Shown here: in pieces, positions 1,922 to 58,207 of the stretch | Layout: each line of letters begins with the position of its first letter | How positions within the stretch are numbered: position 1 is the stretch's first letter | Origin: Candidatus Bathyarchaeota archaeon | GTDB lineage: Archaea; Thermoproteota; Bathyarchaeia; TCS64 | Direction of reading: 5' to 3' | Length of the DNA stretch: 64,000 nucleotides | NCBI GenBank assembly: GCA_026014815.1 | Contig: JAOZHP010000077.1 | Coordinates: forward strand, 6,819-70,818 | Notes under the pieces: model-generated | Told to the model about the DNA's origin: nothing | The model's input: only the letters and a program-made list of their open reading frames with translations | Database searches by the model: none | Position numbers and translations under genes: made by a program

Positions 1922-2065
1922 ATGAGATTATCAAAGAAACATTCACTCGTTTTAATGATAATCTCGTTAATCGCATCCATAATTTCGCCTATTCTACACA
2001 TATATGGAGCCGAAAACTCAGTTTTGACTCCCTCCGCCTCCAATTATACCTTGAAGGAAGCGTGA
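1922..2065 (+). CDS. Small ORF encoding a signal-peptide-like sequence; possibly the N-terminal part of a frameshifted secreted protein continuing in 2062..2379
   Basis: MRLSKKHSLVLMIISLIASIISPILHIYGA is a typical signal peptide. The ORF stops at TGA and overlaps the next ORF by GTGA. Confidence 0.25.
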   Translation: MRLSKKHSLVLMIISLIASIISPILHIYGAENSVLTPSASNYTLKEA

Positions 2066-2379
2066 AACTCGATTACCCGCTCGAAGTAGACTCTACAGTC
2101 GCCAGGATAAACGTGACTCTACTCGGTGAAATCTTCGAGAACATGATAATCTTGGATCAGGATGGCGTATTACTTGATTACACTATCGACGGATCGACGG
2201 TTATTGACGTATTGGGCTCCCAGCGGGTCAACATCAGCTACTACACGACGGGTCTATCCAATAAGACAAGTGTCCTCTGGACTTTACGCTTCAACACACT
2301 AATCGAAACCCTAACCCCTCTTTCTTTTTCCTTTAACTGTAACGTTTTTTACTTGCATCCCCTGTGGGGTGGGGTATGA
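2062..2379 (+). CDS. Hypothetical protein (possible body of a secreted protein, see previous ORF)
   Basis: 105-aa ORF with a GTG start, and the frame is open upstream of the GTG. I recognise no motifs. Confidence 0.25.
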   Translation: MKLDYPLEVDSTVARINVTLLGEIFENMIILDQDGVLLDYTIDGSTVIDVLGSQRVNISYYTTGLSNKTSVLWTLRFNTLIETLTPLSFSFNCNVFYLHPLWGGV

Positions 2380-2621
2380 TTGGCTTACACCTCGTCGTTG
2401 ACGGCGTCACAGAGGAACAAGTGAACAGAGGCACAGTGGATCACATACTCAGGGAACTCCCAGAAGTCATTGACCTGAACGTACTCTCGGTGCCCCACGT
2501 TGTCGAGGGCGTCCCTGAGAACCCTGGATGGACAAGCTTCGTCATCATAGACAAGAGCCACATAGCTATACACACTTTCAGTGAAACAGACACAACCTCC
2601 ATAGATATCTACAGTTGTTAG
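2376..2621 (+). CDS. speH: Pyruvoyl-dependent S-adenosylmethionine (or arginine) decarboxylase proenzyme, SpeH-like, apparently interrupted by an in-frame TAG (homology continues to TGA at 2702)
   Basis: MIGLHLVVDGV...IIDKSHIAIHTFSETDTTSIDIYSC matches the class-1 AdoMetDC pattern GRHLxxD...ESHIxIHTWPE...IDVFTCG. The TAG sits where the conserved Gly or Trp after TC is expected. The next 26 codons (PFHTKNAVNYLKQYIQFKEI...) resemble the SpeH C-terminal helix. Confidence 0.6.
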   Translation: MIGLHLVVDGVTEEQVNRGTVDHILRELPEVIDLNVLSVPHVVEGVPENPGWTSFVIIDKSHIAIHTFSETDTTSIDIYSC

Positions 2622-3005
2622 CCCTTTCACACAAAGAACGCAGTAAACTATCTTAAACAATATATCCAGTTCAAGGAAATAACCACTCGAACAATAACCT
2701 GAGAAATGATGTAATAATGGGTTTTAAAACCACGTTATTACTTTAATTCTTATTATAACCCGAAATACGGTCTTTTTATTTATTAAACAATGAAATAAAT
2801 GGTTTTTATCATTTGAACCAGTTTTTACACGTCATTCACGTAATGTAGGCTCGTTAACAATGAAAAAAAGGATTTAGCATCTATACTCGTGGTTAATACC
2901 TGTTTTAACTCATTTTTCAAGGGTATCTCGATTAGTGGTTCAAAAACATGGAATAATACGGGGTATAGCTTTTATTTCTGGTCTCTTTACAATCATAGAA
3001 GGCTT

Positions 3006-4241
3006 ATGGAAGGTGGGTTCGGCCAGTTCGATGCGGTTTACAACATCCTCATCATGGTCGTAGTTATCACCCTCATAGCAAGGCAGATGAACTTCCCCTC
3101 CACCATCGCTTTCATCTTCGCGGGTCTCCTAGCAGCCTACGTGCCCCGTTTCCCATTACCTGAGATCTCCCCAGCCATCTTCCTGAGCTTGCTCCTACCT
3201 CCTATCCTGTTTACGGAGTCCCTCACTCTGGACATAGAGGGCCTAATAGACGACAGCGACACGATTCTCAGTTACGCCATATTGGGAACTGCGCTCATGG
3301 TCACGGCGGTAGGCACCTATACACACTACATCCTAGGACTGACTTGGATCGAGGCCTTCATGCTAGGCATAATCATAGCTCCCACAGACCCTGTCTCGGT
3401 CATCGCCACTTTCAAGCAGCTAGGTGTGATCAAACGTTTTCAGCTCATCGTAGCCGGTGAGAGCTTGTTCAACGATGGCTTCGCCATCGTCGTTTATAGT
3501 ATACTTGCTATCATTATCGAGGCGGGTGCAATCACTGGAGGAGAGGTGCTCTGGTTAAGCTTGATCAAGATGGTAGGTGGGGTGTTTTTAGGATATATCG
3601 CAGGATACATTGTCCACCTCATCTTCTGCTGGACGGATGACCCCTTCATAGAGATGCTTCTCACATTCATCGTCGCGTTCGGAGTCTTCAGGCTAGCCGA
3701 ACAATTCCACTCCAGTGGGGTCATAGCGGTAGTCATCGCCGGATTAATAATTAATTACCGGAGCAGGTCCATCGGCGGATTATCCACTCAAGGCGAGACC
3801 TCTCTCCATATCATATGGGAGTTCATCGGTTTTATAGCCTCCAGCTTCGCGTTCATATTTATCGGTGTATCAATTGAACCTAACCTCCTGCGAGAATTCC
3901 TACTCCCCATCGTTGGGCTGTCACTTTTTACGGTGGTTTTCCGGTACATAATGGTGGATCTGGTGGCTAGAATACTGGAAAGATACCGAGGCAAAAGAAT
4001 CCCAAGGAACTGGAAAATGGGAATGACCTGGAGCGGCCTCAGGGGCGCTGTATCAGTTGTGCTTGTCTTAGGCATCGCGGGTCTAGGACTCCCCAACTTC
4101 AACATCCTGCTAGCACTCACATACGGTGTTGTATTAGGCTCTAACCTGTTCCAAGGATTATCCATGCCCATCGTCGTCAACAGGCTGCGACTATTCAGCA
4201 CAAGACCCGGACCTGAACTCCAGAAAGAGAGCTCAGAGTAA
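3006..4241 (+). CDS. Na+/H+ antiporter, CPA1 family (NhaP-type)
   Basis: About 11 TM helices with CPA1 motifs LLPPILFTESLTLD and IIAPTDPVSV. Start moved to the internal ATG at 3006, since the upstream 39 codons are non-hydrophobic junk. TAA stop. Confidence 0.8.
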   Translation: MEGGFGQFDAVYNILIMVVVITLIARQMNFPSTIAFIFAGLLAAYVPRFPLPEISPAIFLSLLLPPILFTESLTLDIEGLIDDSDTILSYAILGTALMVTAVGTYTHYILGLTWIEAFMLGIIIAPTDPVSVIATFKQLGVIKRFQLIVAGESLFNDGFAIVVYSILAIIIEAGAITGGEVLWLSLIKMVGGVFLGYIAGYIVHLIFCWTDDPFIEMLLTFIVAFGVFRLAEQFHSSGVIAVVIAGLIINYRSRSIGGLSTQGETSLHIIWEFIGFIASSFAFIFIGVSIEPNLLREFLLPIVGLSLFTVVFRYIMVDLVARILERYRGKRIPRNWKMGMTWSGLRGAVSVVLVLGIAGLGLPNFNILLALTYGVVLGSNLFQGLSMPIVVNRLRLFSTRPGPELQKESSE

Positions 4242-4311
4242 ACACATGCAGTTAACTGATTTTAGTTGAAATGTTTCTAACAGATGCTTCAAACGCCACC
4301 CATGGATTATC

Positions 4312-4806
4312 ATGTCAGTCGCCGAGAGATTAATAATGCTCTCAGAGTTGATAGAGAAGTACGTTTTAGAACTCGAAAAAGAGTACAGGGGTTACGGTAA
4401 CGAGGTGGTCAGAGAGCTACTCGCCTCAATAACTGTGGACAGCATGAAACACGCAGGACTCTACAAGGCAGCCGCATACATAGTCGAGGGAAAAAGCCTT
4501 AGCATCACGGACTAGGAGTACGAGGAACTTGAGAAGAAACTCAAGCTCCATATACAGAACGAACAGGAGATGCTAGACGCCGCGAAGACGCTAATGGATG
4601 AAGTCAAGGACGAACGCGTCAAAAAGATCCTCCTCAAGATATATGAAGACGAGTTGATGCACTACCCATTCCTCACCAGTTTCTAGGAAATCTTCCTCAA
4701 ACGTGAGCTCATCACGGAGCAGGATATATGGGACATGCTTTTCAGGGACCTGCCCACACACGGACATGTGGCCGACCCATACGTTGGAAAAGACTATGGA
4801 GACTAA
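4312..4806 (+). CDS. Four-helix-bundle metal-binding protein (ferritin/hemerythrin-like), single 165-codon frame interrupted by two in-frame TAG codons (4513-4515, 4684-4686)
   Basis: One frame of 165 codons ending TAA. Segment 1 carries DSMKH. Segment 2 carries EQEMLDAAKTLMDEVKDERVKKILLKIYEDELMHYPFL, an ExxH/HHE-like motif. Segments 2 and 3 have no start codon or RBS of their own. Confidence 0.45.
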
Positions 4807-4938
4807 CTCCAGTTAACTAAAATACCCTAAACCAGCCTCTCGTTACCCTATTTTAGTAGTCATAACCCAAAAAAAGGGAAGTAAATATTTATTCACCTTT
4901 CTCCTCAGTTTCATCATAGCCCTAGGGCGTGTGTAGTC

Positions 4939-5649
4939 GTGGGCAAGGGAATCAATATTATCGCAATAGATACAGATACAGATCACGGGAAAACCATTGA
5001 ATTAATTATAGAGTCACTGGACCCTAAGATCCAAGTCACCGTTGTCACATCTAACGCTTCAGTAAAACCACTGATCGACTCTGGGACATACGACTGTGTT
5101 GTTGTAAACCGTACGGATCCTCAACAAGATGAATTCCTGTGCATTCAAGAAATCAGAGGTTACTGTGAGTTACCCATCATCTTATGCGTTAACACTGAAC
5201 TACCACAAAACGCCATTGAAGCTATCAACGAAGGGGTCACGTATTTCTCAAATGTTCCAGTGGGAAATGGACTCTACCTTAAACTCGCTGAGAAGATCAG
5301 GCATGTTGTCTCAATCCACAGGTCCGAGCAAAGAATCATGACGCTGAAACAAAAAAAGAGTCCTCGCGTCCTTGTCCGAGGGGAAAACCTCTATATCATG
5401 GATCATAATGGGGAAGCGTTGTGGGGATTAGAGGAACAATTAACGGATGACGTCGCGAGGCTGATGGAACTAGAGCTCAAGGCCATTGACTTCGTGCGTG
5501 ATAATCTCGCTGACGAGGTAACTGACTTGTCCGAGGTCCTATTGGAGTCTGGGGTTCCGGTCGAGAATATTCCTGATATTATCTATGAGGGTTACAGGAA
5601 ACTCTTTTCTTGGTTTAAGGATCTTGATTCATCTCTTGGTCAAAGGTAG
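4939..5649 (+). CDS. Receiver-like (REC) domain protein, atypical (phospho-acceptor Asp position is Asn), with a C-terminal domain of unknown function
   Basis: IIAIDTDTD...DCVVVN...ILCVNT follows the CheY-like beta-alpha pattern, but DCVVVN replaces DxxxxD. TAG stop. Confidence 0.4.
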   Translation: MGKGINIIAIDTDTDHGKTIELIIESLDPKIQVTVVTSNASVKPLIDSGTYDCVVVNRTDPQQDEFLCIQEIRGYCELPIILCVNTELPQNAIEAINEGVTYFSNVPVGNGLYLKLAEKIRHVVSIHRSEQRIMTLKQKKSPRVLVRGENLYIMDHNGEALWGLEEQLTDDVARLMELELKAIDFVRDNLADEVTDLSEVLLESGVPVENIPDIIYEGYRKLFSWFKDLDSSLGQR

Positions 5650-5813
5650 CTTTTATTGTTCACTGTTTTCTTAGTTTTTTTCATGGAAAATTTATGATCC
5701 ACTATAAAATAGTAATATTTAACAATATTTCAGGCTAAATTTAGCTGTGTATTCGTTATATTTGCCTTAATAAATAAAGGTTTTTAAACTAAAATGTTCT
5801 GAAATTTATTAGG

Positions 5814-5978
5814 ATGGCTGAAAGAAAGTATAAATATCACACGGTAAACCTCCCCGAGAGCCTCGCAAAGAAAATCGAGGAAGTCATAGAGAGCGGTAAC
5901 CATGGATATACCAGCATCCCTGACTTCGTAAAGTCGGCAGTACGCCGATACCTAAGAGATCTTGGATACCTAGTGTAA
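5814..5978 (+). CDS. Ribbon-helix-helix (CopG/Arc/MetJ family) DNA-binding protein, 54 aa
   Basis: KYKYHTVNLPESLAKKIEEVIESGNHGYTSIPDFVKSAVRRYL is a canonical RHH: beta-strand, helix A, G, helix B. It is below the ORF-track size cutoff. ATG 5814, TAA 5976-5978. Confidence 0.6.
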   Translation: MAERKYKYHTVNLPESLAKKIEEVIESGNHGYTSIPDFVKSAVRRYLRDLGYLV

Positions 5979-6125
5979 GATACCGTACAACAGAGCCATG
6001 AGCTCAACAAGATGGAGGATGCAACCTCAAAGTGTTGTAGATATAGGGGAATCTATCACAATACCCTGTCACGATAGATAGCAAACTTTATTGTAACTTT
6101 ACGATAATCATGGATCTGAGGAGCA

Positions 6126-6404: not shown

Positions 6405-6455
6405 GCCCAGCTGGAAACCACAACATAATTATATCGCTAGCGATAATCTCGTCTT

Positions 6456-6815
6456 ATGGTAAACTGTAGAGGCTGCGGCGACGAGTTGGCCCCCATAGCA
6501 AACTTTTGCCCCAAATGCGGACTTAGAACCGAGAAAGGCGAAGAGGAAGGAGTGAAAACACCGATTGGCACCCGTCCCGGATGGGAAAAAGACATCGAGA
6601 CCGCGTTAAACAACGCAACCAAACTCATGGAGGAAGCATTCGACGCTGCAAGGCGAGGACTCCAGACAGCCGCTGACGAGATTGGAGTAGAGATAGAGAA
6701 AGCGAAAACCTGGAGAGCGACAAAAGCAAACCCCGTGTACTGCCCAAAATGCGGAAAAAAGAACCCAAACGACGCACTTTACTGTACAACATGTGGGAAA
6801 GAACTCCCACAGTAA
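6456..6815 (+). CDS. Double zinc-ribbon protein
   Basis: CRGCGDELAPIANFCPKCG at the N-terminus and CPKCGKKNPNDALYCTTCG at the C-terminus (two Cys4 zinc ribbons), with a charged helical linker. TAA stop followed by an oligo-T run. Confidence 0.55.
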   Translation: MVNCRGCGDELAPIANFCPKCGLRTEKGEEEGVKTPIGTRPGWEKDIETALNNATKLMEEAFDAARRGLQTAADEIGVEIEKAKTWRATKANPVYCPKCGKKNPNDALYCTTCGKELPQ

Positions 6816-17676: not shown

Positions 17677-18801
17677 GTGATGAGCCTAAGCGAATCTGAC
17701 TTAAAACTGCTTGTAGCTTTAAAAAAACACATTAACGCAATCACACCAGATCTCCCTGACCGGGCAGTCATCACTGTAGGCCAGTACACCCTAGATTCCC
17801 TTCTTGACTCTCCTTCATTGCAGGAGGAGGGCATAACTGATCTCATCCGGGTACATCATAAGAAGGATTTGGAACATAAAACAGTAGAAATTGATCCCGA
17901 GTACAGCATCGAGGTTGATACTCTATACGAGCCACATTACTGGTTTGACCTCCAAGAGAACCTTGACAGCGATTCCTTCGAAGAGCACGTGAACAAGCGT
18001 ATTTACGATTACCACGACGAGATACTCACCCTCGTAAACGTCTCTGAGGGTTCATCCTCGGGACTATTTCCAATATTACACAAGATTCTCGCCGAGAAGG
18101 GGAAGAACGCACTCGGCGTCGCCGTGTTTCCATCAATGGGCCATAGCAGCGACGCATTATTCAACGCGTTTGCATCCGTGGGTATGATGAACCTTAACAA
18201 TTCAGCTCCCGTACTGCTGCTTGATCAGGGAAAGCTAGAGGATTTCTCGGGGGTGCACCGGGAGGGCGAGCCCCTGCGAGACATGGAAGTTATTGACTAC
18301 ATGGTTGAGCTGCTTCTCGATAAGAGAGGATTCGTTAGGGATATCTACAAGATCTCAAAGAACTTTAATATCAAGACCTTCTCGGCGTTGATGGCCACTG
18401 GTTGCAGCCTTGGCATCTACGAGAATTTCCGAAATATTCTCGAGATCACCCTTGAGCAGCCATTGATGGACTTTGATATCAGCACCGCCACTATGATCTA
18501 TGTACTGGTCAAGGCGCCCATCTATTACCGGGACGAGTTAACGAAAGGGGACATCGAGTTTGAGGTCTCCCAGTGGCTAATGGACTCCCTCGGGGTTGAT
18601 ATTCCCCAGATATGTGAACCCATCTTTGTGGACGAGTTCGGTGACAGGATAGACATCATGATCCTTGTTGGAGGGTTCGATACAAAGAAGATCTACGGGG
18701 ACATCTACCGGAGGATCGAGAGGTTCAGCAACATGAACCTAGAGCAGGGACTCTACGATAAGGAACTTTGGGAAAAAATTAAGAAAGAGTTACTTGGTTA
18801 A
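17677..18801 (+). CDS. Degenerate FtsZ/tubulin-superfamily protein (GTP-binding motifs lost, T7-like loop retained)
   Basis: AVITVGQYTLDSL sits at the G-box position. VAVFPSMGHSSDALFNAFASV aligns with the FtsZ T4 signature (FIAAGMGGGTGTGAAP) but with Gly replaced. QPLMDFDISTATMIYVL aligns with the T7 loop (NVDFADVRTVM). Convergent with the intact FtsZ-like gene, stop codons overlapping. Confidence 0.45.
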   Translation: MMSLSESDLKLLVALKKHINAITPDLPDRAVITVGQYTLDSLLDSPSLQEEGITDLIRVHHKKDLEHKTVEIDPEYSIEVDTLYEPHYWFDLQENLDSDSFEEHVNKRIYDYHDEILTLVNVSEGSSSGLFPILHKILAEKGKNALGVAVFPSMGHSSDALFNAFASVGMMNLNNSAPVLLLDQGKLEDFSGVHREGEPLRDMEVIDYMVELLLDKRGFVRDIYKISKNFNIKTFSALMATGCSLGIYENFRNILEITLEQPLMDFDISTATMIYVLVKAPIYYRDELTKGDIEFEVSQWLMDSLGVDIPQICEPIFVDEFGDRIDIMILVGGFDTKKIYGDIYRRIERFSNMNLEQGLYDKELWEKIKKELLG

Positions 18802-21467
18802 CTACTGGCTTCCCTTTGTAGCTCGGCGAGGACCTCATTTATGTCTCCCTTGTGCTCAACGAGGAAGCTTCTGCTTAGGCCGCTCTCGAACTCGCTGGCC
18901 TTTCGGTTGAGGCGCTCCATCTCATCGTAGGGCACCAAGTCCTCCATAGTTCCACGACCAGCGACTACCACGATCCTGATTACCCATGGATCACGGCACT
19001 CGACTATCCTGACGGTGATAGTTTTAGATACGTCGCCTGTTACGTAAGCCGCTAGAGCCGTGTTTAGCTCCTGAGTCAAGTCCTCGTCCCAGAGACCAGA
19101 GGGTGTTTGGACGGTGACCCAGAGGTAGTCGCTGCGGTACGTGCTCTTCATTCCCATGATGTTGGGGGTTCTATAGATCCTAATGATGCTTCGCATATAG
19201 TCCTTGAAGTGGTCAACGTCAAGGATCTCTGTGAGGATGCCTTCTCTGTTTAGTTGGTCCTCCTGTTCTGCTAGGATCTTGTAGATGATCTTGCCCTGCT
19301 CATCGCCTGTAAGCTCCGTGGTTCGCTCGTAGAACCTGTTGGACTTTATGATTCGTTGAAGCTTTTCTTGGTAGACTTCACTGAGCTCCAGCACGGTGTT
19401 GAGCTTTTTTCTGTACTCGCTTGTGACCTCTAGCTTCTTGGTGAGTTCCTGATAGAACTCGACTATTGTGTCGGTGCTTCCTATCTGGACGTTGAAGTGC
19501 ATCTCTTCCTCGGTGATGGTCCTGAGTTCACGCTCTACGTCCCTGAGCTTTTCTTTGGCGTACTTTTTCTTACCGAAGAGGCTGAATCCCTTGGACTCTT
19601 TCTCATACTTGTTCCTATCGAATTCCTTGCGCTTCTTCTTCTCCTCAAGCCGTATTAGCTCGTTCTCTAGGTTCTCCCTCCTGTTACGGAACTTTATGAT
19701 GAGTGCCTGAAGGTATGTGAGATGCTCATCGATCATCTTGATCTCGTCGCTGCTAGGCTTGATCATGAGCTGTAGCAGGTGATAGATGGTTGTAAGCTCA
19801 GCCTTCATGTCTTTGAAGTTGACGTTAAGCTTCTCTTCCTCCGGCAATATCTCGTAGCGTCTCATGATGGCATCGATAAAGTGCCTGTTCTCGTTGTAGA
19901 GCCGAAGGATGGTGAGTGCCGTCTCTGTGATCTCAGTGATGTTCATAAAGTCATCGATAAGCTTCTTCTGACGGATTGTGAGCTGCTGGCTGCTAGGCAC
20001 AAGCTGTTCAAGCCGTTCAAATATGGCTGTCTTACGCTCTATGAACTCGGGGTGGGTCCTAGACACGTTCCTGAGTAGACCTTCAAGGCTATCATAGGGG
20101 GTCACCTCGTCTCTGTGAAGGATGAGCTTCGTAACACTGTCTTCGATGGTTCCTTCCGTTGAAACGAGCTTGATGGTATTGATGAACTGCTGACTCTCGT
20201 CGATCCATTTATTAATCTGATCTTCGATGCCCCTGACGTAGAGGCTATAATCCTCGTCGAATCTTGGGCTACTGTGGATGAGAGACTCTATTTTGTCCTC
20301 GAACTCCTCGGCGTTGTAGGCGTTGGTCTTGATGAGGTAGTCCATATAGATCTCGCTGACTTTCACACGTTTCAACTCGAGGACGCTCTGCAGCTTCTCC
20401 AATACCTCTAGTTTCTCTTTCCTTATCTCTGCCAGTTGCTGCATCTTCTCTAGGTTGGACTGGAATGCCTCGACGTACGCGTCCACAGGGTAGTTGACTT
20501 TGATCATGCTGAGTGTGTGGATGGTATTATCGGTGAGTCCTACCTCTGTGCCTATTCCGCTCATGAGATCGGCCATGTCAAAGTCCATGAGTACATAGAT
20601 CATCTCAACGATCATCTTATCGATCTCGTCACGGGCCGCGAGAATGTTCCCTGTCTTACTGTACGCTGGCATTAGCGGTAGGAACATTACGCTGTTGAAC
20701 GGGTTCCTGTAGACTTCTCCTAGTCCATTTGTGATGACCTCGTTCTTCTCCCTGTTGATAAGCAGGCTTAACTCGTTGATGCCGTTGAAAGCTGAGTAGC
20801 CTTTGGCTGGCGGATCGTCTCCCGGGCATGGTAGGATACAAAGTCCCATGATGGGTACGCCGCTGCCAACAGACTGTCGGAGATGCCTAGCGAAGTCCAT
20901 GATCATCCCTGAACCTGTTCCCCCTCCGAGGCCGAACACGATCATGATGATAGGGCTATTTATGCTGCTCAGGGCGTTGTCCTTGAACATGTTGGTGAAG
21001 CTCTTGATTATGCCCAGCTGGTAGTAGTTGAGGTTGTAGATGGCCTTGGCGAGGCTCCTGCGTCTGCCTGCACCTCCTGCTAATGGCGGGATGGCCACGG
21101 TGTTTGGCAGCCACGCGTTATACTCTTTGAGCTTTATGTCCTCGTTTTCAAGGTGTTCCTTGAACTTGTTCTGGACGAAGTCGAACATGGCTTCCGCGGA
21201 GGGGAACTTTACGCTTTTCGCGATTACGCTTAGGCGTTCCTGTGGAATGCCTTTACGCCTCATCTGTTCTAGGATCCGGTTGTAGGTGTCGTTTAGGTTT
21301 TTAATGTCTGGATCCGCGATGTCCATGGCTAACATGCTGAGCCTTGTGGCTCCGCTGTTCAGTAGCTCCATGGTTTTATCTGTTTTTAGGAAGGTTTCCA
21401 CTACGTTGGTTCCTGCTCCTCCGAGGCCAACGAGGTGGATGACGCTTGAGTATCCAAGTTCCGACAT
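18798..21467 (-). CDS. Divergent FtsZ-like GTPase (N-terminal about 320 aa) with a roughly 570-aa C-terminal coiled-coil extension (889 aa)
   Basis: T1 loop HLVGLGGAGTNVVE, T3 loop GGAGRRR, T4 loop IVFGLGGGTGSGM, T5 loop PIMGLCILPCP, T7 loop LMDFDMADLMSGIG, in FtsZ order. The remainder is Glu/Lys/Leu-rich heptad sequence. Its ATG abuts the TAA of the upstream gene (TAAATG). Confidence 0.7.
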   Translation of the reverse strand: MSELGYSSVIHLVGLGGAGTNVVETFLKTDKTMELLNSGATRLSMLAMDIADPDIKNLNDTYNRILEQMRRKGIPQERLSVIAKSVKFPSAEAMFDFVQNKFKEHLENEDIKLKEYNAWLPNTVAIPPLAGGAGRRRSLAKAIYNLNYYQLGIIKSFTNMFKDNALSSINSPIIMIVFGLGGGTGSGMIMDFARHLRQSVGSGVPIMGLCILPCPGDDPPAKGYSAFNGINELSLLINREKNEVITNGLGEVYRNPFNSVMFLPLMPAYSKTGNILAARDEIDKMIVEMIYVLMDFDMADLMSGIGTEVGLTDNTIHTLSMIKVNYPVDAYVEAFQSNLEKMQQLAEIRKEKLEVLEKLQSVLELKRVKVSEIYMDYLIKTNAYNAEEFEDKIESLIHSSPRFDEDYSLYVRGIEDQINKWIDESQQFINTIKLVSTEGTIEDSVTKLILHRDEVTPYDSLEGLLRNVSRTHPEFIERKTAIFERLEQLVPSSQQLTIRQKKLIDDFMNITEITETALTILRLYNENRHFIDAIMRRYEILPEEEKLNVNFKDMKAELTTIYHLLQLMIKPSSDEIKMIDEHLTYLQALIIKFRNRRENLENELIRLEEKKKRKEFDRNKYEKESKGFSLFGKKKYAKEKLRDVERELRTITEEEMHFNVQIGSTDTIVEFYQELTKKLEVTSEYRKKLNTVLELSEVYQEKLQRIIKSNRFYERTTELTGDEQGKIIYKILAEQEDQLNREGILTEILDVDHFKDYMRSIIRIYRTPNIMGMKSTYRSDYLWVTVQTPSGLWDEDLTQELNTALAAYVTGDVSKTITVRIVECRDPWVIRIVVVAGRGTMEDLVPYDEMERLNRKASEFESGLSRSFLVEHKGDINEVLAELQREASS

Positions 21468-27217: not shown

Positions 27218-28207
27218 ATGGCTATCTTGCCTGATGAGTATGTCCTAGGGGTTGATGGTGGGGGGACTTGGACTCGAAGCATCATCATGAGACTAGACGG
27301 GACAGTGTTGGGGAAAGGCAGCGCTGGGCCCTCAAACCCATTAACCATAGGAATGGATGCGGCTCTAGAGAACATCACTCAAGCAGTGGACGAAGCTAAG
27401 AGTGAAGCAGATGTAAAATCATTCAAAGCCAGCAGGCTAGGCCTCGCTGGGGGAGCCCGATCAGTCCTTGGAGACAGGATGGTGGAACGTCTCCCCGAGA
27501 ACTATGGGGATACAGGGATCATCTCTGACACTGAATCCGCGTTGGCTGGCTCCACAGGGTGTAGGCCCGGGGTCGTGGTGATAGCTGGCACGGGTTCTAA
27601 CGTGTATGGAAAGAACGCACAAGGCGAGGAGGCGAAGGCGGGGGGATGGGGATGGCGCCTCGGTGACGAGGGAAGCGGGTACACGATAGGCAAGAACGCG
27701 ATAATAGCAGCATTAGAGTATCATGATGGAAGAGGACCATACACGACGCTCAAGGAGAGCATCCTGAGATACCTCGAAATCAAAGACATTGAGGAAATCA
27801 TCGACTGGACCTATGACTCTGGACGCGAGCCCAGACACTTTGCTTCACTGGTCCCATTAGTTAAGGAAGCTGAGAAGAGTGGAGATAAGGTCGCCGCTAA
27901 GATCATGATGGAGGTTGGCGCCCAGCTAGGAGGTATCGCTCAGGTAGTAGTAAGGAGACTAGGACTAACGGGAGCTTTTCCTGTTGCGTATGTCGGCGGT
28001 GTATTCAAGCAACCCCTTTCCTACAACGTTGCATTTGAGGAGAAGGTTCGCCAAGTAGCCCCGGACTGTCAAATAATTGAGCCGTTGTTCTCTCCCACCG
28101 TTGGCTCGGCTCTTCTAGCCCTAATAGCTATGGGGATTGATGTAGATGACGACCTCCTCAACAACGTAAAGACGAGCTTCACTGGTAGAGGTGACGTGAA
28201 TGAGTAG
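27218..28207 (+). CDS. BadF/BadG/BcrA/BcrD-type ATPase sugar kinase (MurK/N-acetylglucosamine kinase-like)
   Basis: LGVDGGGTWTRS (ASKHA phosphate-1), IAGTGSNVYG (phosphate-2), GWGWRLGDEGSGYTIG. Overlaps murQ by 8 nt. Confidence 0.6.
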   Translation: MAILPDEYVLGVDGGGTWTRSIIMRLDGTVLGKGSAGPSNPLTIGMDAALENITQAVDEAKSEADVKSFKASRLGLAGGARSVLGDRMVERLPENYGDTGIISDTESALAGSTGCRPGVVVIAGTGSNVYGKNAQGEEAKAGGWGWRLGDEGSGYTIGKNAIIAALEYHDGRGPYTTLKESILRYLEIKDIEEIIDWTYDSGREPRHFASLVPLVKEAEKSGDKVAAKIMMEVGAQLGGIAQVVVRRLGLTGAFPVAYVGGVFKQPLSYNVAFEEKVRQVAPDCQIIEPLFSPTVGSALLALIAMGIDVDDDLLNNVKTSFTGRGDVNE

Positions 28208-29099
28208 AACAACTGAGCAACTGAACCCTGCATCGAAGGGGATAGACGAGAAGCCCATCAGGGAGATACTTGAAATCATCAACACCGAGGACTCCAAGAT
28301 AGCTGAAGCCATCAGAAAGGAGCTACCACAGATCGAGAAAGCGGTGGAGGCAATAGTGAACACTGTCAAGTCTGATGGAAGAGTCTTCTTAATGGGCGCA
28401 GGGACCAGTGGCAGACTGTGCATACTTGAGGCGTCCGAGATACCCCCCACCTTCGGCATCGACCCCGAGGTCATTCAGGGGGTAATAGCGGGCGGACTTG
28501 ACGCCCTACACGGGTCAGTGGAGACAGCGGAGGACCAATCCAATAAGGCTTGGAGCGATCTCCAGAGCCGAGGCTTCAACCAGCGTGACCTCCTAATGGC
28601 TCTATCAGCCTCAGGAAGTACTCCCTATGTGCTCGGCGCAGTGAAAGCCGCCAAAGAAATCAAAGCTAAGACCATAGGGGTGGCATGCAACAAGGGCACT
28701 CCACTGGGAGAGTTAGCTGACATCTCGGTCGAGCTTATAGTGGGTCCCGAGGTGGTGGCTGGCTCAACACGGATGAAGGCTGGGACTGCCCAGAAGATGG
28801 TGCTCAACATGATGAACACCTCAGCTATGGCAAAGCTGGGTCTTATCCATGATGGCTACATGGTGGGTGTTCAGGCATCCAACATTAAGCTCATGGACAG
28901 AAGCACCCGCATAGTGTCCAATATCGCTGAGATTAGCTATGAAGAAGCTCGAAAAGCCCTTGAGATCACCAAATATGACGTACGTGTTGCTTTACTCTAT
29001 GTCATGACAGGAATGACGATAGACGAGGCGAGAACCGCACTGAGCGACTGGAGGTCAGTAAGAGATGTTCTCAGGAAGAAAGGTGGCAATGTTGAGTAA
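28200..29099 (+). CDS. murQ: N-acetylmuramic acid 6-phosphate etherase (MurQ, SIS domain)
   Basis: GRVFLMGAGTSGRLCILEASEIPPTFG and SASGSTPYVLGAVKAAKE match MurQ-conserved blocks. About 300 aa. Confidence 0.85.
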   Translation: MSRTTEQLNPASKGIDEKPIREILEIINTEDSKIAEAIRKELPQIEKAVEAIVNTVKSDGRVFLMGAGTSGRLCILEASEIPPTFGIDPEVIQGVIAGGLDALHGSVETAEDQSNKAWSDLQSRGFNQRDLLMALSASGSTPYVLGAVKAAKEIKAKTIGVACNKGTPLGELADISVELIVGPEVVAGSTRMKAGTAQKMVLNMMNTSAMAKLGLIHDGYMVGVQASNIKLMDRSTRIVSNIAEISYEEARKALEITKYDVRVALLYVMTGMTIDEARTALSDWRSVRDVLRKKGGNVE

Positions 29100-29147
29100 C
29101 GTGAGGGGATATTATTATTTCTACAAGGCAGAAAGGAGGCATCTGCC

Positions 29148-30314
29148 CTGAGAGTCACGCCCGGAATAGATGTACTTCTAAAGGACCCGGATAAGCACCT
29201 CGGGCAAGCTAACATAGGTCTCGTCACCAATCCGACTGGTGTGACCAACGGGCTTGAGTCCACCATCGACGCGTTGCACAGATGCTCCAAGGTAAATCTT
29301 AGAGCCGTGTTTGGGCCTGAGCATGGAGCGAGAGGCGACGCGCAGGACGCTCTCAAGGTGTCTGGCCACGTGGACGCGTACACAGGGCTCCCTGTTCATA
29401 GCCTGTATGGTGATCACGAGAAGCCTACCGTTGAGATGCTGGAAGGCCTCGAAGCTCTGGTTTTTGATATACAGGATTGTGGCGCCCGGTTCTATACCTA
29501 TGTTTCAACTCTCACTCATTGCATGGAGGCTTCAGCAGAGCATGGCATACGTGTTGTTGTCCTTGATAGGCCCAACCCTTTGAACGGAGACGCGACCGAA
29601 GGCAACATATTGAAACCCGGTTTCAGGTCCTTCATCGGGTTACACCCAGTCCCTATCCGTCACGGCCTAACTGTCGGTGAGCTTGCCCAGTTCATCAATC
29701 AAGGTATCCAGTGTGATCTTCACGTGGTCGAGATGGAGGGATGGAGACGCGGAATGTGGTACGACGAGACCAGTTTACCGTGGATTCAGCCCAGCCCTAA
29801 CCTGCCCTCCCTTGACACAGCGACAGTGTACCCCGGCACATGCTTCTTCGAGGGAGTGAACGTCTCCGAGGGTAGAGGAACAACGCGGCCCTTCGAGTAC
29901 ATCGGTGCTCCATGGATCGATGGCAGAAGCTGGGCAGAGACCCTCAACAACACAGGTCTCCCCGGGGTGTGTTTCCGGAGCAGCCACTTCACCCCCACCT
30001 TCTGGAAATTCAAGGATGAAAGATGCGGAGGCGTACAGGTCCACGTAGTTGACAGGAAGTGTTTCAGACCAATGGAGACGGGTCTCCACCTTTTAACGAC
30101 GTTAATTCAGCTCTACCCGGACACTTTTAGCTTCAACGAGTCATCCTACGATAAGCGGCGCCACTTTGATCTCCTAGCAGGTACAGACACTCTAAGAGCA
30201 GACCTAATGGCCGGTGTCTCAGTCGAGGAGATCATGGCCTCCTGGATGCCTGAACTGGAGGAATACCGGGAGAAACGTAAAGAGCATCTGCTCTATGGAG
30301 GCGACGATGAATGA
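29148..30314 (+). CDS. namZ: DUF1343-family exo-beta-N-acetylmuramidase (NamZ/YbbC-like); start is non-canonical (CTG 29148 with AGGAGG 8 nt upstream, or ATA), as no ATG/GTG/TTG is available
   Basis: GIDVLL...IGLVTNPTGV, FGPEHGARGDAQDA, FDIQDCGARFYTYVST, LDRPNP and GRGTTRPFEYIGAP are all DUF1343 blocks in order. The frame is closed by the murQ TAA 16 codons upstream, and the first GTG (29241) lies inside a conserved block. Confidence 0.75.
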   Translation: MRVTPGIDVLLKDPDKHLGQANIGLVTNPTGVTNGLESTIDALHRCSKVNLRAVFGPEHGARGDAQDALKVSGHVDAYTGLPVHSLYGDHEKPTVEMLEGLEALVFDIQDCGARFYTYVSTLTHCMEASAEHGIRVVVLDRPNPLNGDATEGNILKPGFRSFIGLHPVPIRHGLTVGELAQFINQGIQCDLHVVEMEGWRRGMWYDETSLPWIQPSPNLPSLDTATVYPGTCFFEGVNVSEGRGTTRPFEYIGAPWIDGRSWAETLNNTGLPGVCFRSSHFTPTFWKFKDERCGGVQVHVVDRKCFRPMETGLHLLTTLIQLYPDTFSFNESSYDKRRHFDLLAGTDTLRADLMAGVSVEEIMASWMPELEEYREKRKEHLLYGGDDE

Positions 30315-31465
30315 GTGATAAAAAAACTTTCAGGGGAACCCTGGTGACACCCTTCAAAGTCATAAACGATGGGCAACTGGAGTTAGAAGGAGTCACCATA
30401 ACCTACGCTGGGCCCAGAAGAACGACATCAGGCAAGGTAAAAGATTACGGTGACAACATCATCACACCGGGGTTCATCGATATCCATATCCACGGCGGAG
30501 CCGGGTACGACGCAATGGACCCTGAACAAGAAGCCCTAAACAAGATCTCAGAGTACCTAGCAGGTGGGGGAGTGACAGGTTTCCTCGCCACAACCCAGAC
30601 CGCCCCACTCATCCAGACCCTAAATGCACTCAGAAGGATACGTGACGCAGTAAAAGCCGGAACCACCGGCGCTAAGCTTCTTGGGGCACATATGGAAGGA
30701 CCGTTTATCAGCCCTGTGAAAAAGGGGGCACAGCGAGAGTCTTCCATACGTTCACCTACAATCAATGAAATCGCTGAGGTGCTCCAAGTCTCAGATGGGG
30801 CGCTCAAGATTGTGACTCTCGCCCCCGAGGTAGAGGGAGCCGTCGAGGTTATCAGATGGCTCGCGGATCATGCTGTCGTTGTCTCCGCTGGGCACACTGA
30901 GTCGTCATACGAGGAGGCGTGTGAGGCGATCGATGCAGGTCTATCTCATATGAGTCACTTCTTTAACGGTATGCGGGGCTTCCATCACCGTGAACCCGGT
31001 GTAGTGGGTGCAGGCCTCATCGATGACAGAGTTACGGTAGAGCTGGTTGCCGACGGGCTTCACGTCCACCCCGCCGTACTCAGGCTCGCAGCTGTAGCCA
31101 AGGGGCCAAGCATGGTCGCCCTTGTCTCTGATTCAATAAAACCCGCTGGTCTACCTGACGGTGAGTATCAGATAGATGGCAGAACTTTGATTTTAGGGGG
31201 TGGATTAGTCAAGCTTCCCTCTGGGGTGATAGCCGGTAGCTCAATTCGACTGAACGACGCCGTGAGGAACATGGTGAACGTGGGGCTCCCATTATCGGAT
31301 GCTGTTCAGATGGCCACCGACACCCCTGCGAGGATTCTTGGGCTCACACCAAGAATGGGAAGACTTGAACCGGGAAGCGACGCCGATATCGTTGTCATGG
31401 ACCAGACTTACCGGGTTCTAGAGACCTTGGTGGACGGTGAAACCGTTTACAGGCTGAGTGACTAG
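30311..31465 (+). CDS. nagA: N-acetylglucosamine-6-phosphate deacetylase (NagA)
   Basis: GFIDIHIHGGAG, GAHMEGPF, SAGHTESSYEE, SHFFNGM, ALVSDS. ATGA overlap with namZ. TAG stop. Confidence 0.85.
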   Translation: MSDKKTFRGTLVTPFKVINDGQLELEGVTITYAGPRRTTSGKVKDYGDNIITPGFIDIHIHGGAGYDAMDPEQEALNKISEYLAGGGVTGFLATTQTAPLIQTLNALRRIRDAVKAGTTGAKLLGAHMEGPFISPVKKGAQRESSIRSPTINEIAEVLQVSDGALKIVTLAPEVEGAVEVIRWLADHAVVVSAGHTESSYEEACEAIDAGLSHMSHFFNGMRGFHHREPGVVGAGLIDDRVTVELVADGLHVHPAVLRLAAVAKGPSMVALVSDSIKPAGLPDGEYQIDGRTLILGGGLVKLPSGVIAGSSIRLNDAVRNMVNVGLPLSDAVQMATDTPARILGLTPRMGRLEPGSDADIVVMDQTYRVLETLVDGETVYRLSD

Positions 31466-31468
31466 GAG

Positions 31469-32659
31469 ATGAGAGACACTTATCGTAAGGTCACGGAGCT
31501 CCGAGAAAGAGAAACCAGAAGAATAATAGGGCTTATGTCAGGGACATCGGCGGACGGAGTCACCGCTGCACTCACAAGGATCACCGGAGCAGGGGAGCAA
31601 GCAACCATCAAACTCGAAGGATACAAGACATACCCCTACCATGACGAGGTACAACAACGCCTATTTACTCTATTCAACCCTAAGACAGGAACCGTAAGAG
31701 ACGCCTGTGAGCTGAACTTCGTCATCGGGGAAGCATTCGCGGACTCCGTTGAACGCATCTTGGCGGACACAGGGATCAATGTTAGCGACGTAGACCTTAT
31801 CGGCAGTCACGGTCAAACGATATGGCATCAACCAAAAACTAACCTAGTCGCAGGGCACAGTACACGTTCCACGCTTCAGATAGGTGAACCAGCAGTCATC
31901 TCATTCAAAACAGGTCTCCCAGTTATCGCTGACTTCAGGAAAGCAGACATCGTGGCTGGGGGCGAAGGCGCACCACTAACACCCTACCTCGACTACGTTC
32001 TCCATAGAGACCCCAAGGCAAATAGGGTACTGCAGAACATCGGGGGAATCGCTAACCTGACATACCTACCCAGCGGTGGATCACTTGACGACATAGTTGC
32101 ATTCGACACTGGACCGGGGAATATGATCATCGACGCAGTCGTGAAGAGGTACACGGGAGGCAGTCACGATGTTGATGGGGCTATCGCGAGACGCGGCGAG
32201 GTCCACCCTGTTCTTTTGGACAAACTATTGTCTCATATCTATTTCGCGTCGCGTGCTCCAAAGACCACTGGCAGGGAGATGTTCGGGGAGCATTATGCTG
32301 ATGAGATCATAAAGCAGGCCAAGAAGATGAGGGTATCCATGGAAGACGTGGTTGCCACTATCACGGCGCTGACCTTTGAATCAATAGCTCAGGCATACGA
32401 GACCCATCTACCCGGAGATGTTGACGAGATATACGTCTCAGGTGGTGGAGCGAGAAACCCTGTGCTCATGGAAGGCCTCAGGGATCGACTTGAGGCTCCC
32501 GTATACGAATACTCAGCCCTAGGGTTCCCTAGTGAGGCGAAGGAGGCGGTTCTCATGGCGTTGCTGGCGAACGAGCACGTGATGGGGGTCCCATGTAACG
32601 TACCTTCGGCTACCGGAGCCCAATCGAGAGTTGTTCTAGGTTGCTTAACATGGGTCTAA
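31469..32659 (+). CDS. anmK: Anhydro-N-acetylmuramic acid kinase (AnmK)
   Basis: IGLMSGTSADGV, DLIGSHGQTIWH, ADFRKADIVAGGEGAPL, FDTGPGNMIID. 396 aa. Confidence 0.85.
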   Translation: MRDTYRKVTELRERETRRIIGLMSGTSADGVTAALTRITGAGEQATIKLEGYKTYPYHDEVQQRLFTLFNPKTGTVRDACELNFVIGEAFADSVERILADTGINVSDVDLIGSHGQTIWHQPKTNLVAGHSTRSTLQIGEPAVISFKTGLPVIADFRKADIVAGGEGAPLTPYLDYVLHRDPKANRVLQNIGGIANLTYLPSGGSLDDIVAFDTGPGNMIIDAVVKRYTGGSHDVDGAIARRGEVHPVLLDKLLSHIYFASRAPKTTGREMFGEHYADEIIKQAKKMRVSMEDVVATITALTFESIAQAYETHLPGDVDEIYVSGGGARNPVLMEGLRDRLEAPVYEYSALGFPSEAKEAVLMALLANEHVMGVPCNVPSATGAQSRVVLGCLTWV

Positions 32660-32692
32660 CCGTTAAATCCTGAATGCACACATATTCTCTAG

Positions 32693-58171: not shown

Positions 58172-58190
58172 GTCCCCCTTTTTATTCATC
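58172..58190. terminator. T-rich terminator candidate
   Basis: GTCCCCCTTTTTATTCATC follows the TAA of the pyrI-pyrE fusion. Confidence 0.35.
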
Positions 58191-58207
58191 CCTTCAAGAG
58201 TCAACTC

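What the first reader, a model, noticed from the sequence alone, without database searches (positions are those of the whole stretch)
4312..4806. A 165-codon ferritin/hemerythrin-like four-helix-bundle gene carrying two in-frame TAG codons
A single frame runs ATG...TAG...TAG...TAA. The metal-binding motifs are split across the interruptions (DSMKH before the first TAG, EDELMH-YPF after it), and segments 2 and 3 have no start codons or RBS of their own. Two TAGs in one small gene, plus the SpeH case, within 2.5 kb is hard to ascribe to chance. Both TAG contexts (gac-TAG-gag, ttc-TAG-gaa) would read D-W-E and F-W-E if the codon were TGG.
Basis: seen in the sequence. Interest (0 to 1): 0.65.

Follow-up and report, generated by a model that had tools for sequence, protein, structure and literature searches.

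The report
Broken rubrerythrin-like gene, two amber stops
The two in-frame TAG codons are real, but they most likely mark an ordinary recently inactivated gene in a Bathyarchaeia genome that otherwise uses TAG as a normal stop, not a change in the genetic code.

Summary
Window 4312-4806 (+) is a single frame, ATG...TAG (codon 68)...TAG (codon 125)...TAA. All three segments align without gaps to intact 164-aa Bathyarchaeia proteins (E 4e-78, 77-80% identity) in conserved synteny: AhpC, SpeH, NhaP, this gene, and so on.

The TGG/Trp idea is wrong. Orthologs have E, V or L at codon 68 and Leu at codon 125. The nearest orthologs have GAG/GAA and TTG there, so GAG to TAG and TTG to TAG are single-base routes.

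TAG is a working terminator here. About 30% of genes end in TAG. Three neighbouring genes end in TAG exactly where their orthologs end. Three TAG-terminated genes are followed in the same frame by an unrelated gene.

Only this gene and SpeH carry in-frame TAGs in the 64 kb. SpeH also has an in-frame TGA at a conserved Arg codon. Both genes have altered TATA boxes, while the TATA/core promoter motifs of five intact neighbours are unchanged.

The family is broken repeatedly in other lineages, by TAG, TAA, frameshifts and a deletion.

Best reading: nonsense-mutation pseudogenes, or null alleles (confidence about 0.7). Amber read-through, assembly artefact and a functional split at the hinge cannot be excluded. 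One oddity remains: another clade carries a shared frameshift at this same codon 68.

The parts
4312..4806 (+). Remnant of a 164-aa rubrerythrin-like (ferritin-like superfamily) gene, read as a pseudogene or null allele. It has 165 codons including the TAA and is interrupted by two TAGs.
   Evidence: E 4.3e-78 to intact 164-aa proteins. (gap-free alignment to 35 orthologous loci). (conserved synteny).
4513..4515 (+). TAG1, codon 68, at the start of helix C (the hinge between the two helical hairpins). Orthologs have E (17), V (14) or L (4). The nearest orthologs have GAG/GAA.
4684..4686 (+). TAG2, codon 125, near the end of helix D. Orthologs have Leu in 35 of 35. The two nearest orthologs have TTG, one transversion from TAG.
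4273..4280 (+). Altered TATA box, GTTTCTAA, with C at 4277. All 35 orthologous loci have A at that position (33 read GTTTAT, two GTATAT), about 32-39 nt upstream of the ATG.
2376..2714 (+). Companion case: a SpeH-family pyruvoyl decarboxylase gene with an in-frame TAG at 2619-2621 (invariant Lys in 14 of 14 orthologs) and an in-frame TGA at 2700-2702 (Arg in 14 of 14). The TGA is followed by GAA ATG ATG TAA, which matches the orthologous R-E-I-I-stop tail.
2344..2351 (+). SpeH TATA-box region reads GTTTTTTA. Twelve of 13 orthologs have TTTATAT and one has TTTAAAT.
3006..4241 (+). Intact Na+/H+ exchanger gene lying between the two broken genes; used as the internal control. The true start is probably the ATG at 3006. 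Its conserved promoter (2963-2978, GTATAGCTTTTATTTC) is intact.
   Evidence: (Pfam 3e-55, full-length profile).

Best explanation
The locus is the orthologous copy of a small Bathyarchaeia-specific rubrerythrin-like gene. In other lineages that gene makes a 164-aa protein of two helical hairpins (A-B and C-D) plus a His-rich tail (DLPTHGH). In this genome the gene has been knocked out by two ordinary nonsense substitutions, probably GAG to TAG at codon 68 and TTG to TAG at codon 125. Translation stops at codon 68. The product would be at most a 67-residue A-B hairpin that lacks the second half of the presumed metal site. Transcription is probably weakened too, because the conserved TATA box carries a C at a position where all 35 orthologs have A. 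The nearby SpeH-family gene has been lost in the same way (TAG at an invariant Lys, TGA at a conserved Arg, altered TATA box). What is shown: the TAGs sit at ancestrally sense codons; TAG is a functional terminator in this genome; and the lesions are confined to these two genes. What is inferred: that the genes are non-functional and that the event is recent, since there are few other lesions.
For: (1) Orthologs are intact and align codon for codon with no gaps, with sense codons at both sites in 35 of 35 loci. The nearest orthologs have GAG/GAA and TTG, and GAG and TTG are each one base from TAG. (2) TAG is a true stop here. It ends 20 of 58 non-overlapping ORFs (about 17 of 55 after removing shadow ORFs). 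AhpC, the RR-like gene and PfkB end in TAG within 0-3 codons of where orthologs end in TAA, TGA or TAG. Three TAG-terminated genes are followed in the same frame, with no other stop, by an unrelated gene: PfkB then RadA-like, amidohydrolase then AnmK, and a 259-aa ORF then Pyr_excise. Pyl-using archaea have a median of 5% TAG stops (range 1-27%); non-users have a median of 22% (PMC12626013). (3) Only 2 of about 57 genes in the 64 kb carry in-frame TAGs. The rest give full-length Pfam matches. (4) The lesions are not TAG-specific, because SpeH also has an in-frame TGA at a codon that is Arg in 14 of 14 orthologs. (5) Two of the three TAGs fall on invariant or near-invariant residues (Lys, Leu). 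That fits random hits, not tolerated recoding. (6) The TATA-box cores of both affected genes are changed at conserved positions. The core TATA/operator motifs of five intact neighbours (NhaP, RR-like, RHH, o6126, Zn-ribbon) are unchanged. (7) The family is recurrently inactivated elsewhere. L021 has TAG at Q45. L031 has TAG at E5 plus many radical substitutions. L022 has TAA plus indels. L044 has three TAAs plus a frameshift. L041/L042 have an internal deletion. L038/39/40/45/46 share a frameshift. The neighbouring NhaP, PfkB and SpeH orthologs show no in-frame stops in coding sequence, with about 33,000 neighbour-gene residues aligned in all. (8) Three TAGs out of three is not improbable (p about 0.09), because GAG, AAG and TTG codons make TAG the commonest nonsense outcome in these genes.
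Against: Two nonsense codons in a 165-codon gene that has no frameshift or indel and keeps conserved motifs intact in all three segments is unusual for a pseudogene. All three internal stops are TAG, and they cluster within 2.1 kb. Collateral decay is weak and not statistically significant. Substitutions at conserved protein columns number 7 of 123 in the two broken genes against 20 of 539 in intact neighbours (Fisher p = 0.31). Mismatches at conserved upstream columns number 6 of 25 against 11 of 103 (p = 0.10). The window lineage is also long-branched in intact genes. No close relative exists in any collection searched (best 80% identity), so lineage-specific dN/dS could not be measured. TAG1 falls on the very codon where another clade carries a shared frameshift (chance about 0.012), which hints at something site-specific. 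The rest of the genome, including any pyl genes or suppressor tRNA, cannot be seen.
Confidence: 0.7

Rival explanations
1. The genes are still functional because UAG is partly read through in this organism, by pyrrolysyl-tRNA, another amber suppressor tRNA or near-cognate decoding. TAG would then have a dual meaning, as in Methanosarcina.
For: All three internal stops are TAG. All three segments keep family-conserved residues. Pyl machinery exists in some Bathyarchaeota (PMC9630628). UAG is ambiguous, not context-programmed, in Pyl archaea, and Pyl-positive genomes can have up to 27% TAG stops (PMC12626013). The SpeH TAG replaces a Lys, and Pyl is a lysine derivative.
Against: The share of TAG stops (about 30-34%) is above the reported Pyl-positive range. 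Read-through would fuse three TAG-terminated genes to the next gene in frame. The window has no tRNA, no Rfam hit, and no pyl-like or methyltransferase gene. No ortholog has TAG at these codons. TAG2 and the SpeH TAG sit on near-invariant Leu and invariant Lys. There is no significant downstream structure (z = -1.9, -0.7 and 0.0). Both promoters are altered. SpeH also has a TGA. Two UAGs in series would cut the full-length yield multiplicatively.
Confidence: 0.1
2. The TAGs are not in the dominant genotype. They would be consensus or assembly errors, or a minor null allele captured from a mixed population when the genome was assembled.
For: The source genome is absent from every collection searched, so nothing corroborates the bases. 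At least one related contig with a frameshift has only 2.6-fold coverage, which shows such artefacts occur in this family's data.
Against: At least five independent substitutions are involved: three TAGs, one TGA and the TATA C. All are confined to two genes, and the other 60 kb reads as clean, full-length genes. Random errors would not pick out stop codons and promoter cores of just these genes.
Confidence: 0.1
3. TAG1 marks a tolerated or functional split of the protein at the hinge between hairpin A-B and hairpin C-D. The halves would assemble non-covalently, as in domain-swapped rubrerythrins or two-helix encapsulated ferritins.
Against: The C-D segment has no start codon before the conserved M87 in the window, and none at all upstream in L040. 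The split idea does not explain TAG2 at a conserved Leu. Within the frameshift clade, L045 has a second frameshift and L046 has 4 non-synonymous against 0 synonymous changes, including the invariant H80 to P, so that clade also looks like decay. The promoter is altered.
Confidence: 0.06
4. Genome-wide reassignment of TAG to a sense codon.
For: Only the three in-frame TAGs themselves.
Against: TAG ends about a third of the genes, with tight gene packing and ends matching the orthologs. Only 2 of about 57 genes have internal TAGs. Treating TAG as sense does not rescue more coding sequence than treating TGA as sense does.
Confidence: 0.01

Closest known systems
Unitary pseudogenes or null alleles made by nonsense substitution in prokaryotic genomes
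   Same: In-frame stops sit at codons that are sense in all orthologs. Synteny is preserved. The lesions are limited to particular genes, more than one kind of stop is present (TAG and TGA), the promoters are altered, and the same family is broken independently in other lineages.
   Different: Decay is very light: no indels and few missense changes. All stops inside the domains are TAG. Recency cannot be dated, because no close relative is available.
Pyrrolysine/amber dual decoding in Methanosarcina and other Pyl-positive archaea (PMC12626013). From my own knowledge, Pyl has also appeared by drift in non-methyltransferase genes.
   Same: In-frame UAG in otherwise conserved genes with no special sequence context. 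Some Bathyarchaeota carry PylRS (PMC9630628).
   Different: TAG is not depleted as a terminator here. No pyl genes or tRNA are visible. The TAGs are not conserved in orthologs and fall on invariant Leu and Lys. Both genes show promoter damage.
Rubrerythrin, sulerythrin and other ferritin-like diiron four-helix proteins, including domain-swapped dimers and two-helix encapsulated ferritins
   Different: The match is below the Pfam gathering score. The first half has D43-x-x-x-H47 instead of ExxH. There is an extra C-terminal beta-strand, helix and DLPTHGH tail. No rubredoxin domain is present. No solved relative is found by sequence. Distribution is apparently almost all Bathyarchaeia, always next to a Na+/H+ exchanger gene.

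Membership tests
Ferritin-like superfamily / Rubrerythrin (Pfam PF02915) | Sequence match at or above the Pfam gathering score | tested here: not met
   Window protein: 17.1 bits against a cutoff of 22.8 (E 0.0076). Of 45 homologs, 14 hit Rubrerythrin at E < 0.01 (best 3e-4). Other ferritin-like families (FA_desaturase_2, DUF455, Ferritin) also appear. NCBIfam bacterioferritin E 0.03. No PDB relative by sequence.
Ferritin-like superfamily / Rubrerythrin (Pfam PF02915) | Four long helices forming a bundle, or two hairpins | tested here: met
   AF2 model of intact homolog P0001, pLDDT 84: helices 3-25, 31-58, 67-97 and 101-127, plus E64-66/E129-131 and H136-144. This was tested on the homolog, not on the interrupted window copy.
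Ferritin-like superfamily / Rubrerythrin (Pfam PF02915) | Structural similarity to solved ferritin-like proteins | tested here: inconclusive
Ferritin-like superfamily / Rubrerythrin (Pfam PF02915) | Paired E ... ExxH metal ligands in both halves | tested here: inconclusive
   Second half: E84/E86 and E114-L-M-H117 are invariant or nearly invariant. First half: E20/E24 and D43-S-x-K-H47, which is DxxxH and not ExxH.
Pyrrolysine (amber) recoding | pylT/pylS/pylBCD present in the genome | not testable with these tools
   Only 64 kb is visible. It has 0 tRNAs, no Rfam hit and no Pyl-related Pfam hit among about 50 ORFs. The source genome was not found in any collection.
Pyrrolysine (amber) recoding | TAG depleted among terminators | tested here: not met
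   20 of 58 ORFs end in TAG (about 17 of 55 after curation). This was verified against ortholog ends for three genes. The literature median for Pyl-positive genomes is 5%, range 1-27%.
Pyrrolysine (amber) recoding | The in-frame TAG is conserved in orthologs, or lies at a tolerant position | tested here: not met
   None of 35 (Ferr) and none of 14 (SpeH) orthologs has TAG at these codons. Two of the three sites are invariant or near-invariant Lys and Leu.
Pyrrolysine (amber) recoding | Stimulatory RNA structure downstream of the UAG (PYLIS-like; not obligatory) | tested here: not met
   The 120 nt downstream of each TAG gave z = -1.94, -0.68 and +0.02 against shuffles. The small hairpin after TAG1 is not conserved across the family.
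Genome-wide TAG sense reassignment | TAG absent as a terminator and frequent inside conserved genes | tested here: not met
Nonsense-mutation pseudogene | Stop at an ancestrally sense codon while orthologs are intact and syntenic | tested here: met
Nonsense-mutation pseudogene | Independent additional lesions (promoter, other stop types, radical substitutions) | tested here: inconclusive
   TATA cores are changed in both genes and SpeH has a TGA. There are private changes E14I, M41T, K83N and H118Y, and G to V and G to S in SpeH. The pooled excess over intact neighbours is not significant (p = 0.10 and 0.31).
Nonsense-mutation pseudogene | Relaxed selection (dN/dS near 1) on the lineage, or lack of expression | not testable with these tools
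   No relative closer than 80% amino-acid identity. No expression data.

The most novel reading that the evidence does not exclude
UAG is leaky in this Bathyarchaeon, through a Pyl or other amber-suppressor tRNA encoded outside the window, even though TAG is one of its commonest terminators. On that reading the rubrerythrin-like gene and SpeH stay functional, or are conditionally expressed through read-through. A variant reading is that codon 68 is a site where this protein family tolerates or exploits interruption (TAG here, a shared frameshift in another clade), giving a split or recoded two-hairpin protein.
Probability: 0.08. Interest if true: 0.65.

Novelty: already known. Interest (0 to 1): 0.2.

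Why it matters
If the ordinary reading holds, the main value is practical. It shows that a cluster of same-type in-frame stops in conserved genes can arise without recoding. It also shows which cheap checks separate the two cases: terminator usage verified against ortholog ends, in-frame neighbouring genes, stops of other types, promoter integrity, and lesions in the same family elsewhere.

It also flags an uncharacterised, Bathyarchaeia-restricted rubrerythrin-like gene that sits beside a Na+/H+ exchanger gene and is lost again and again. That suggests a conditionally dispensable function.

If the minority reading were true, it would be a case of amber suppression outside methylamine metabolism, in an archaeon that has not purged TAG terminators. 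That would bear on how ambiguous stop decoding is tolerated.

Tried and rejected
- **TGG/Trp origin of the TAGs.** Rejected; no ortholog has Trp at either site.
- **Genome-wide TAG reassignment.** Rejected.
- **Fragments as independent small genes.** The fragment-sized database hits P0099-P0112 are gene-caller pieces of broken orthologs.
- **Intron or insertion at the TAGs.** Rejected; the alignment is gap-free, with one codon replacing one residue.
- **Opposite-strand or alternative-frame gene.** None is plausible. The minus-strand frames over the locus need 2-8 TAGs.
- **Read-through-stimulating RNA structure.** Nothing significant or conserved.
- **CTAG avoidance or methylation-motif artefact.** CTAG observed/expected is 0.92, which is unremarkable, and the third site is TTAG.
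- **IS5-type YTAR footprints.** Considered, but there is no length change at any of the sites.
- **Second intact copy in the window.** None for either gene.
- **Finding the source genome or a close relative to polarise the changes.** Three exact look-ups failed. The genome and metagenome scans reached at most 80% identity.
- **Rfam.** No hits in the window.
- **Missense and promoter decay statistics.** The direction fits a pseudogene, but the excess is not significant.
- **dN/dS in the frameshift clade.** Mixed signal, left unexplained.

Full report
**1. What is in the sequence**

Window 4312-4806 on the + strand is one reading frame. It runs from ATG through TAG at 4513-4515 (codon 68) and TAG at 4684-4686 (codon 125) to TAA at 4804-4806. 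With X at the two TAGs, the conceptual protein finds 112 database proteins. The best are intact 164-aa proteins from Bathyarchaeia metagenome-assembled genomes, at E 4e-78, 77% identity and 99% coverage. Thirty-five orthologous loci were fetched from genome and metagenome collections. They align codon for codon with no gaps, and identity is equally high in all three segments.

**2. Which organism and locus**

The locus lies in a gene order conserved across Bathyarchaeia. The order is AhpC-like, SpeH-family decarboxylase, Na+/H+ exchanger, this gene, an RR-like gene, a 54-aa RHH-like protein, a 92-aa ORF, a zinc-ribbon protein, then PfkB kinase and a RadA-like ATPase. The window's own genome, or any relative closer than 80% amino-acid identity, is absent from every collection I could search. 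As a result, lineage-specific selection could not be measured.

**3. What the TAGs replace**

- Codon 68 is E in 17 orthologs, V in 14 and L in 4.
- Codon 125 is Leu in all 35.
- The two nearest orthologs (80% identity) have GAG/GAA and TTG at these codons. GAG to TAG and TTG to TAG are single transversions.
- The SpeH TAG (2619-2621) replaces a Lys that is AAG or AAA in 14 of 14 orthologs.

**4. Is TAG decoded in this genome?**

The window says no, for five reasons.

- TAG ends 20 of 58 non-overlapping ORFs, or about 17 of 55 once shadow ORFs and this gene are removed.
- AhpC, the RR-like gene and PfkB end in TAG within 0-3 codons of where their orthologs end in TAA, TGA or TAG.
- Three TAG-terminated genes are followed, in the same frame and with no other stop, by a gene of an unrelated family. 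These are PfkB then RadA-like, amidohydrolase then AnmK, and a 259-aa ORF then Pyr_excise. Efficient read-through would make fusions.
- Published surveys give a median of 5% TAG terminators (range 1-27%) in Pyl-using archaea and 22% in non-users (PMC12626013). The window's roughly 30% is on the non-user side.
- The window has no tRNA, no Rfam match and no Pyl-related or methyltransferase gene among about 50 ORFs scanned.

Some Bathyarchaeota do encode PylRS (PMC9630628). The rest of the genome therefore remains an open question.

**5. How special is the pattern?**

A census with TAG treated as sense finds only two genes in the 64 kb whose frames are joined by TAGs and not explained by other genes: SpeH and this one. 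The other genes give full-length domain matches.

In these E/K/L-rich genes, TAG is the outcome of 40-49% of all possible single-base nonsense mutations. Three TAGs out of three therefore has p of about 0.09.

SpeH also carries an in-frame TGA at 2700-2702, where 14 of 14 orthologs have Arg. It is followed by GAA ATG ATG TAA, which matches the orthologous R-E-I-I-stop tail. The lesions are thus not restricted to TAG.

**6. Signs of decay beyond the stops**

The orthologs of this gene share a TATA box about 35 nt upstream of the ATG. All 35 have A at the fifth position: 33 read GTTTAT and two (L038, L040) read GTATAT. The window has GTTTCTAA at 4273-4280. SpeH orthologs have TTTATAT in 12 of 13 and TTTAAAT in one, where the window has TTTTTTA.

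Five intact neighbours keep the core TATA/operator motifs of their promoters unchanged in the window: NhaP, the RR-like gene, RHH, o6126 and the zinc-ribbon gene.

This fits loss of selection on exactly the two interrupted genes, but the statistics are weak.

| Measure | Two broken genes | Intact neighbours | Fisher p |
|---|---|---|---|
| Mismatches at conserved upstream columns | 6 of 25 | 11 of 103 | 0.10 |
| Substitutions at protein columns at least 95% conserved | 7 of 123 | 20 of 539 | 0.31 |

The substitutions in the broken genes include E14I, M41T, K83N, H118Y, and G to V and G to S in SpeH. Those in the intact neighbours are mostly conservative. The window lineage is long-branched in general. 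I treat this as supporting evidence, not proof.

**7. The family is broken repeatedly elsewhere**

| Loci | Lesion |
|---|---|
| L021 | TAG at Q45 |
| L031 | TAG at E5 plus many radical substitutions |
| L022 | TAA plus in-frame indels |
| L044 | three TAAs plus a frameshift |
| L041, L042 | internal deletion from about codon 16 to codon 73, joining the similar ELEE and ELEK stretches, plus a frameshift |
| L043 | +1 insertion (2.6-fold coverage, possibly an error) |
| L038, L039, L040, L045, L046 | shared net -1 frameshift |

The NhaP, PfkB and SpeH orthologs in the same contigs show no in-frame stops in coding sequence, with about 33,000 neighbour-gene residues aligned in all. The gene is evidently dispensable in many lineages. 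That makes one more inactivation here unsurprising.

**8. What the intact protein is**

No Pfam family reaches threshold. Rubrerythrin scores 17 bits against a cutoff of 22.8. Of 45 homologs, 14 hit it at E < 0.01, and other ferritin-like families also appear. No solved structure is found by sequence.

The second half has E84/E86 and E114-x-x-H117. The first half has D43-x-x-x-H47. 'Distant ferritin-like/rubrerythrin-like protein of unknown function' is as far as the evidence goes. TAG1 sits at the first turn of helix C, at the hinge between the two hairpins. TAG2 sits near the end of helix D.

**9. An unexplained coincidence**

The shared frameshift of the L038 clade lies at exactly codon 68 (GAC GTG GAG TAC becomes GAC GTG G-T TAC). 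Between L038 and L040 both halves still look constrained. pN/pS is 0.30 and 0.23 (Fisher p = 0.03 and 6e-4), compared with 0.07-0.27 in intact controls.

Three things argue against function in that clade:

- L040 has no start codon for the second half.
- L045 has a second frameshift.
- L046 differs from L038 by 4 non-synonymous and 0 synonymous changes in the C half, including invariant H80 to P.

The chance that one of two TAGs hits that codon is about 0.012. This may reflect tolerance of a break at the hinge, since domain-swapped rubrerythrins assemble hairpins from different chains (my own knowledge). It may equally be coincidence. It does not explain TAG2. I keep it as a minor rival.

**10. 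Verdict**

The most likely explanation, at confidence about 0.7, is that this gene and the SpeH-family gene are recently inactivated pseudogenes, or a null allele, produced by ordinary nonsense substitutions in a genome that uses the standard code.

The rivals are:

- amber read-through or suppression (about 0.1)
- consensus or assembly artefact (about 0.1)
- a functional split at the hinge (about 0.06)
- genome-wide recoding (about 0.01)

The finding is real but ordinary. Interest is low, with a small tail if a suppressor were found elsewhere in the genome.

Noticed in passing
window 2700-2714: The SpeH-family gene has a second premature stop, TGA at 2700-2702, where 14 of 14 orthologs have Arg. 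The next codons (GAA ATG ATG TAA) still match the orthologous E-I-I-stop tail. It shows the lesions are not TAG-specific.
   Followed up: yes
L038 3001-3494, L039, L040, L045 2501-3003, L046: One clade of orthologs, from at least four samples, shares a net -1 frameshift at exactly codon 68, the window's TAG1 codon. L038 against L040 gives pN/pS 0.23-0.30 in both halves, like intact genes. L045 has a second frameshift and L046 has H80P. Whether this is slow decay, a split protein or recoding is unresolved.
   Followed up: partly
L021 2121, L031 262, L022 6259, L044 300-927, L041 1400-1780, L043 1230-1782: The rubrerythrin-like family is inactivated independently in many Bathyarchaeia lineages: by TAG, TAA, three TAAs plus a frameshift, and an internal deletion that joins the similar ELEE and ELEK stretches of helices A and C. 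Neighbouring genes in the same contigs are intact.
   Followed up: partly
window 2944-2978 (upstream of the NhaP ATG at 3006): A strongly conserved non-coding motif, AAACATnGAAyAAT..GGnGTATAGCTTTTATTT, lies upstream of the Na+/H+ exchanger gene in 18 lineages. It is probably a TATA box plus an operator site. The listed GTG start at 2889 is upstream of the real start, because orthologs have stops in that stretch.
   Followed up: partly
window 5814-5978 (+), promoter 5773-5794: A 54-aa RHH-like protein (MAERKYKYHTVNLPESLAKK...) is 94-98% identical in 24 of 26 full-length orthologs (79% in L035/L036), while the neighbouring proteins in those lineages are only 30-75% identical. Its promoter is nearly invariant too. 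No Pfam hit. This is unusually strong constraint for a tiny protein.
   Followed up: no
window 6431-6446: An invariant palindrome, ATATCGCTAGCGATAA (core TCGCTAGCGA), sits just upstream of the zinc-ribbon gene (6456-6815) in all 24 orthologous loci. It is likely a conserved operator or promoter element.
   Followed up: no
L003, L004, L006, L008, L009, L014, L018, L029, L031, L033 (codons 66-82 of the orthologous gene): In one clade the coding sequence around codon 68 forms a strong hairpin, GACGTGGAGT...ACTCCACGTC (up to -33 kcal/mol, z = -4.4 in L004). Its 5' arm covers the codon where the frameshift clade is broken. It could be a quasi-palindrome mutational hot spot. The hairpin is not conserved in the window lineage.
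   Followed up: partly
window 27218-33898: A run of peptidoglycan/muropeptide-recycling genes in an archaeal genome: BadF/BcrA-type ATPase, MurQ-like SIS protein, NamZ exo-muramidase, amidohydrolase, AnmK anhydro-MurNAc kinase and an M20 peptidase.
   Followed up: no
window 18801-21467 (-): An 889-aa protein with an N-terminal Tubulin_2 / tubulin-FtsZ GTPase domain (Pfam E 1e-16), flanked by large ORFs that have no Pfam hits.
   Followed up: no
window 56945-58221: The ORF carrying the PyrI (aspartate carbamoyltransferase regulatory chain) domains at residues 7-147 runs on to 408 aa. It is overlapped by a 314-aa ORF in another frame (57277-58221). The gene structure here looks unusual and was not examined.
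   Followed up: no
window 2001-6000: GC content is 0.44-0.46 here, against about 0.50 for most of the window. The dip covers the two broken genes and the intact exchanger gene between them.
   Followed up: no
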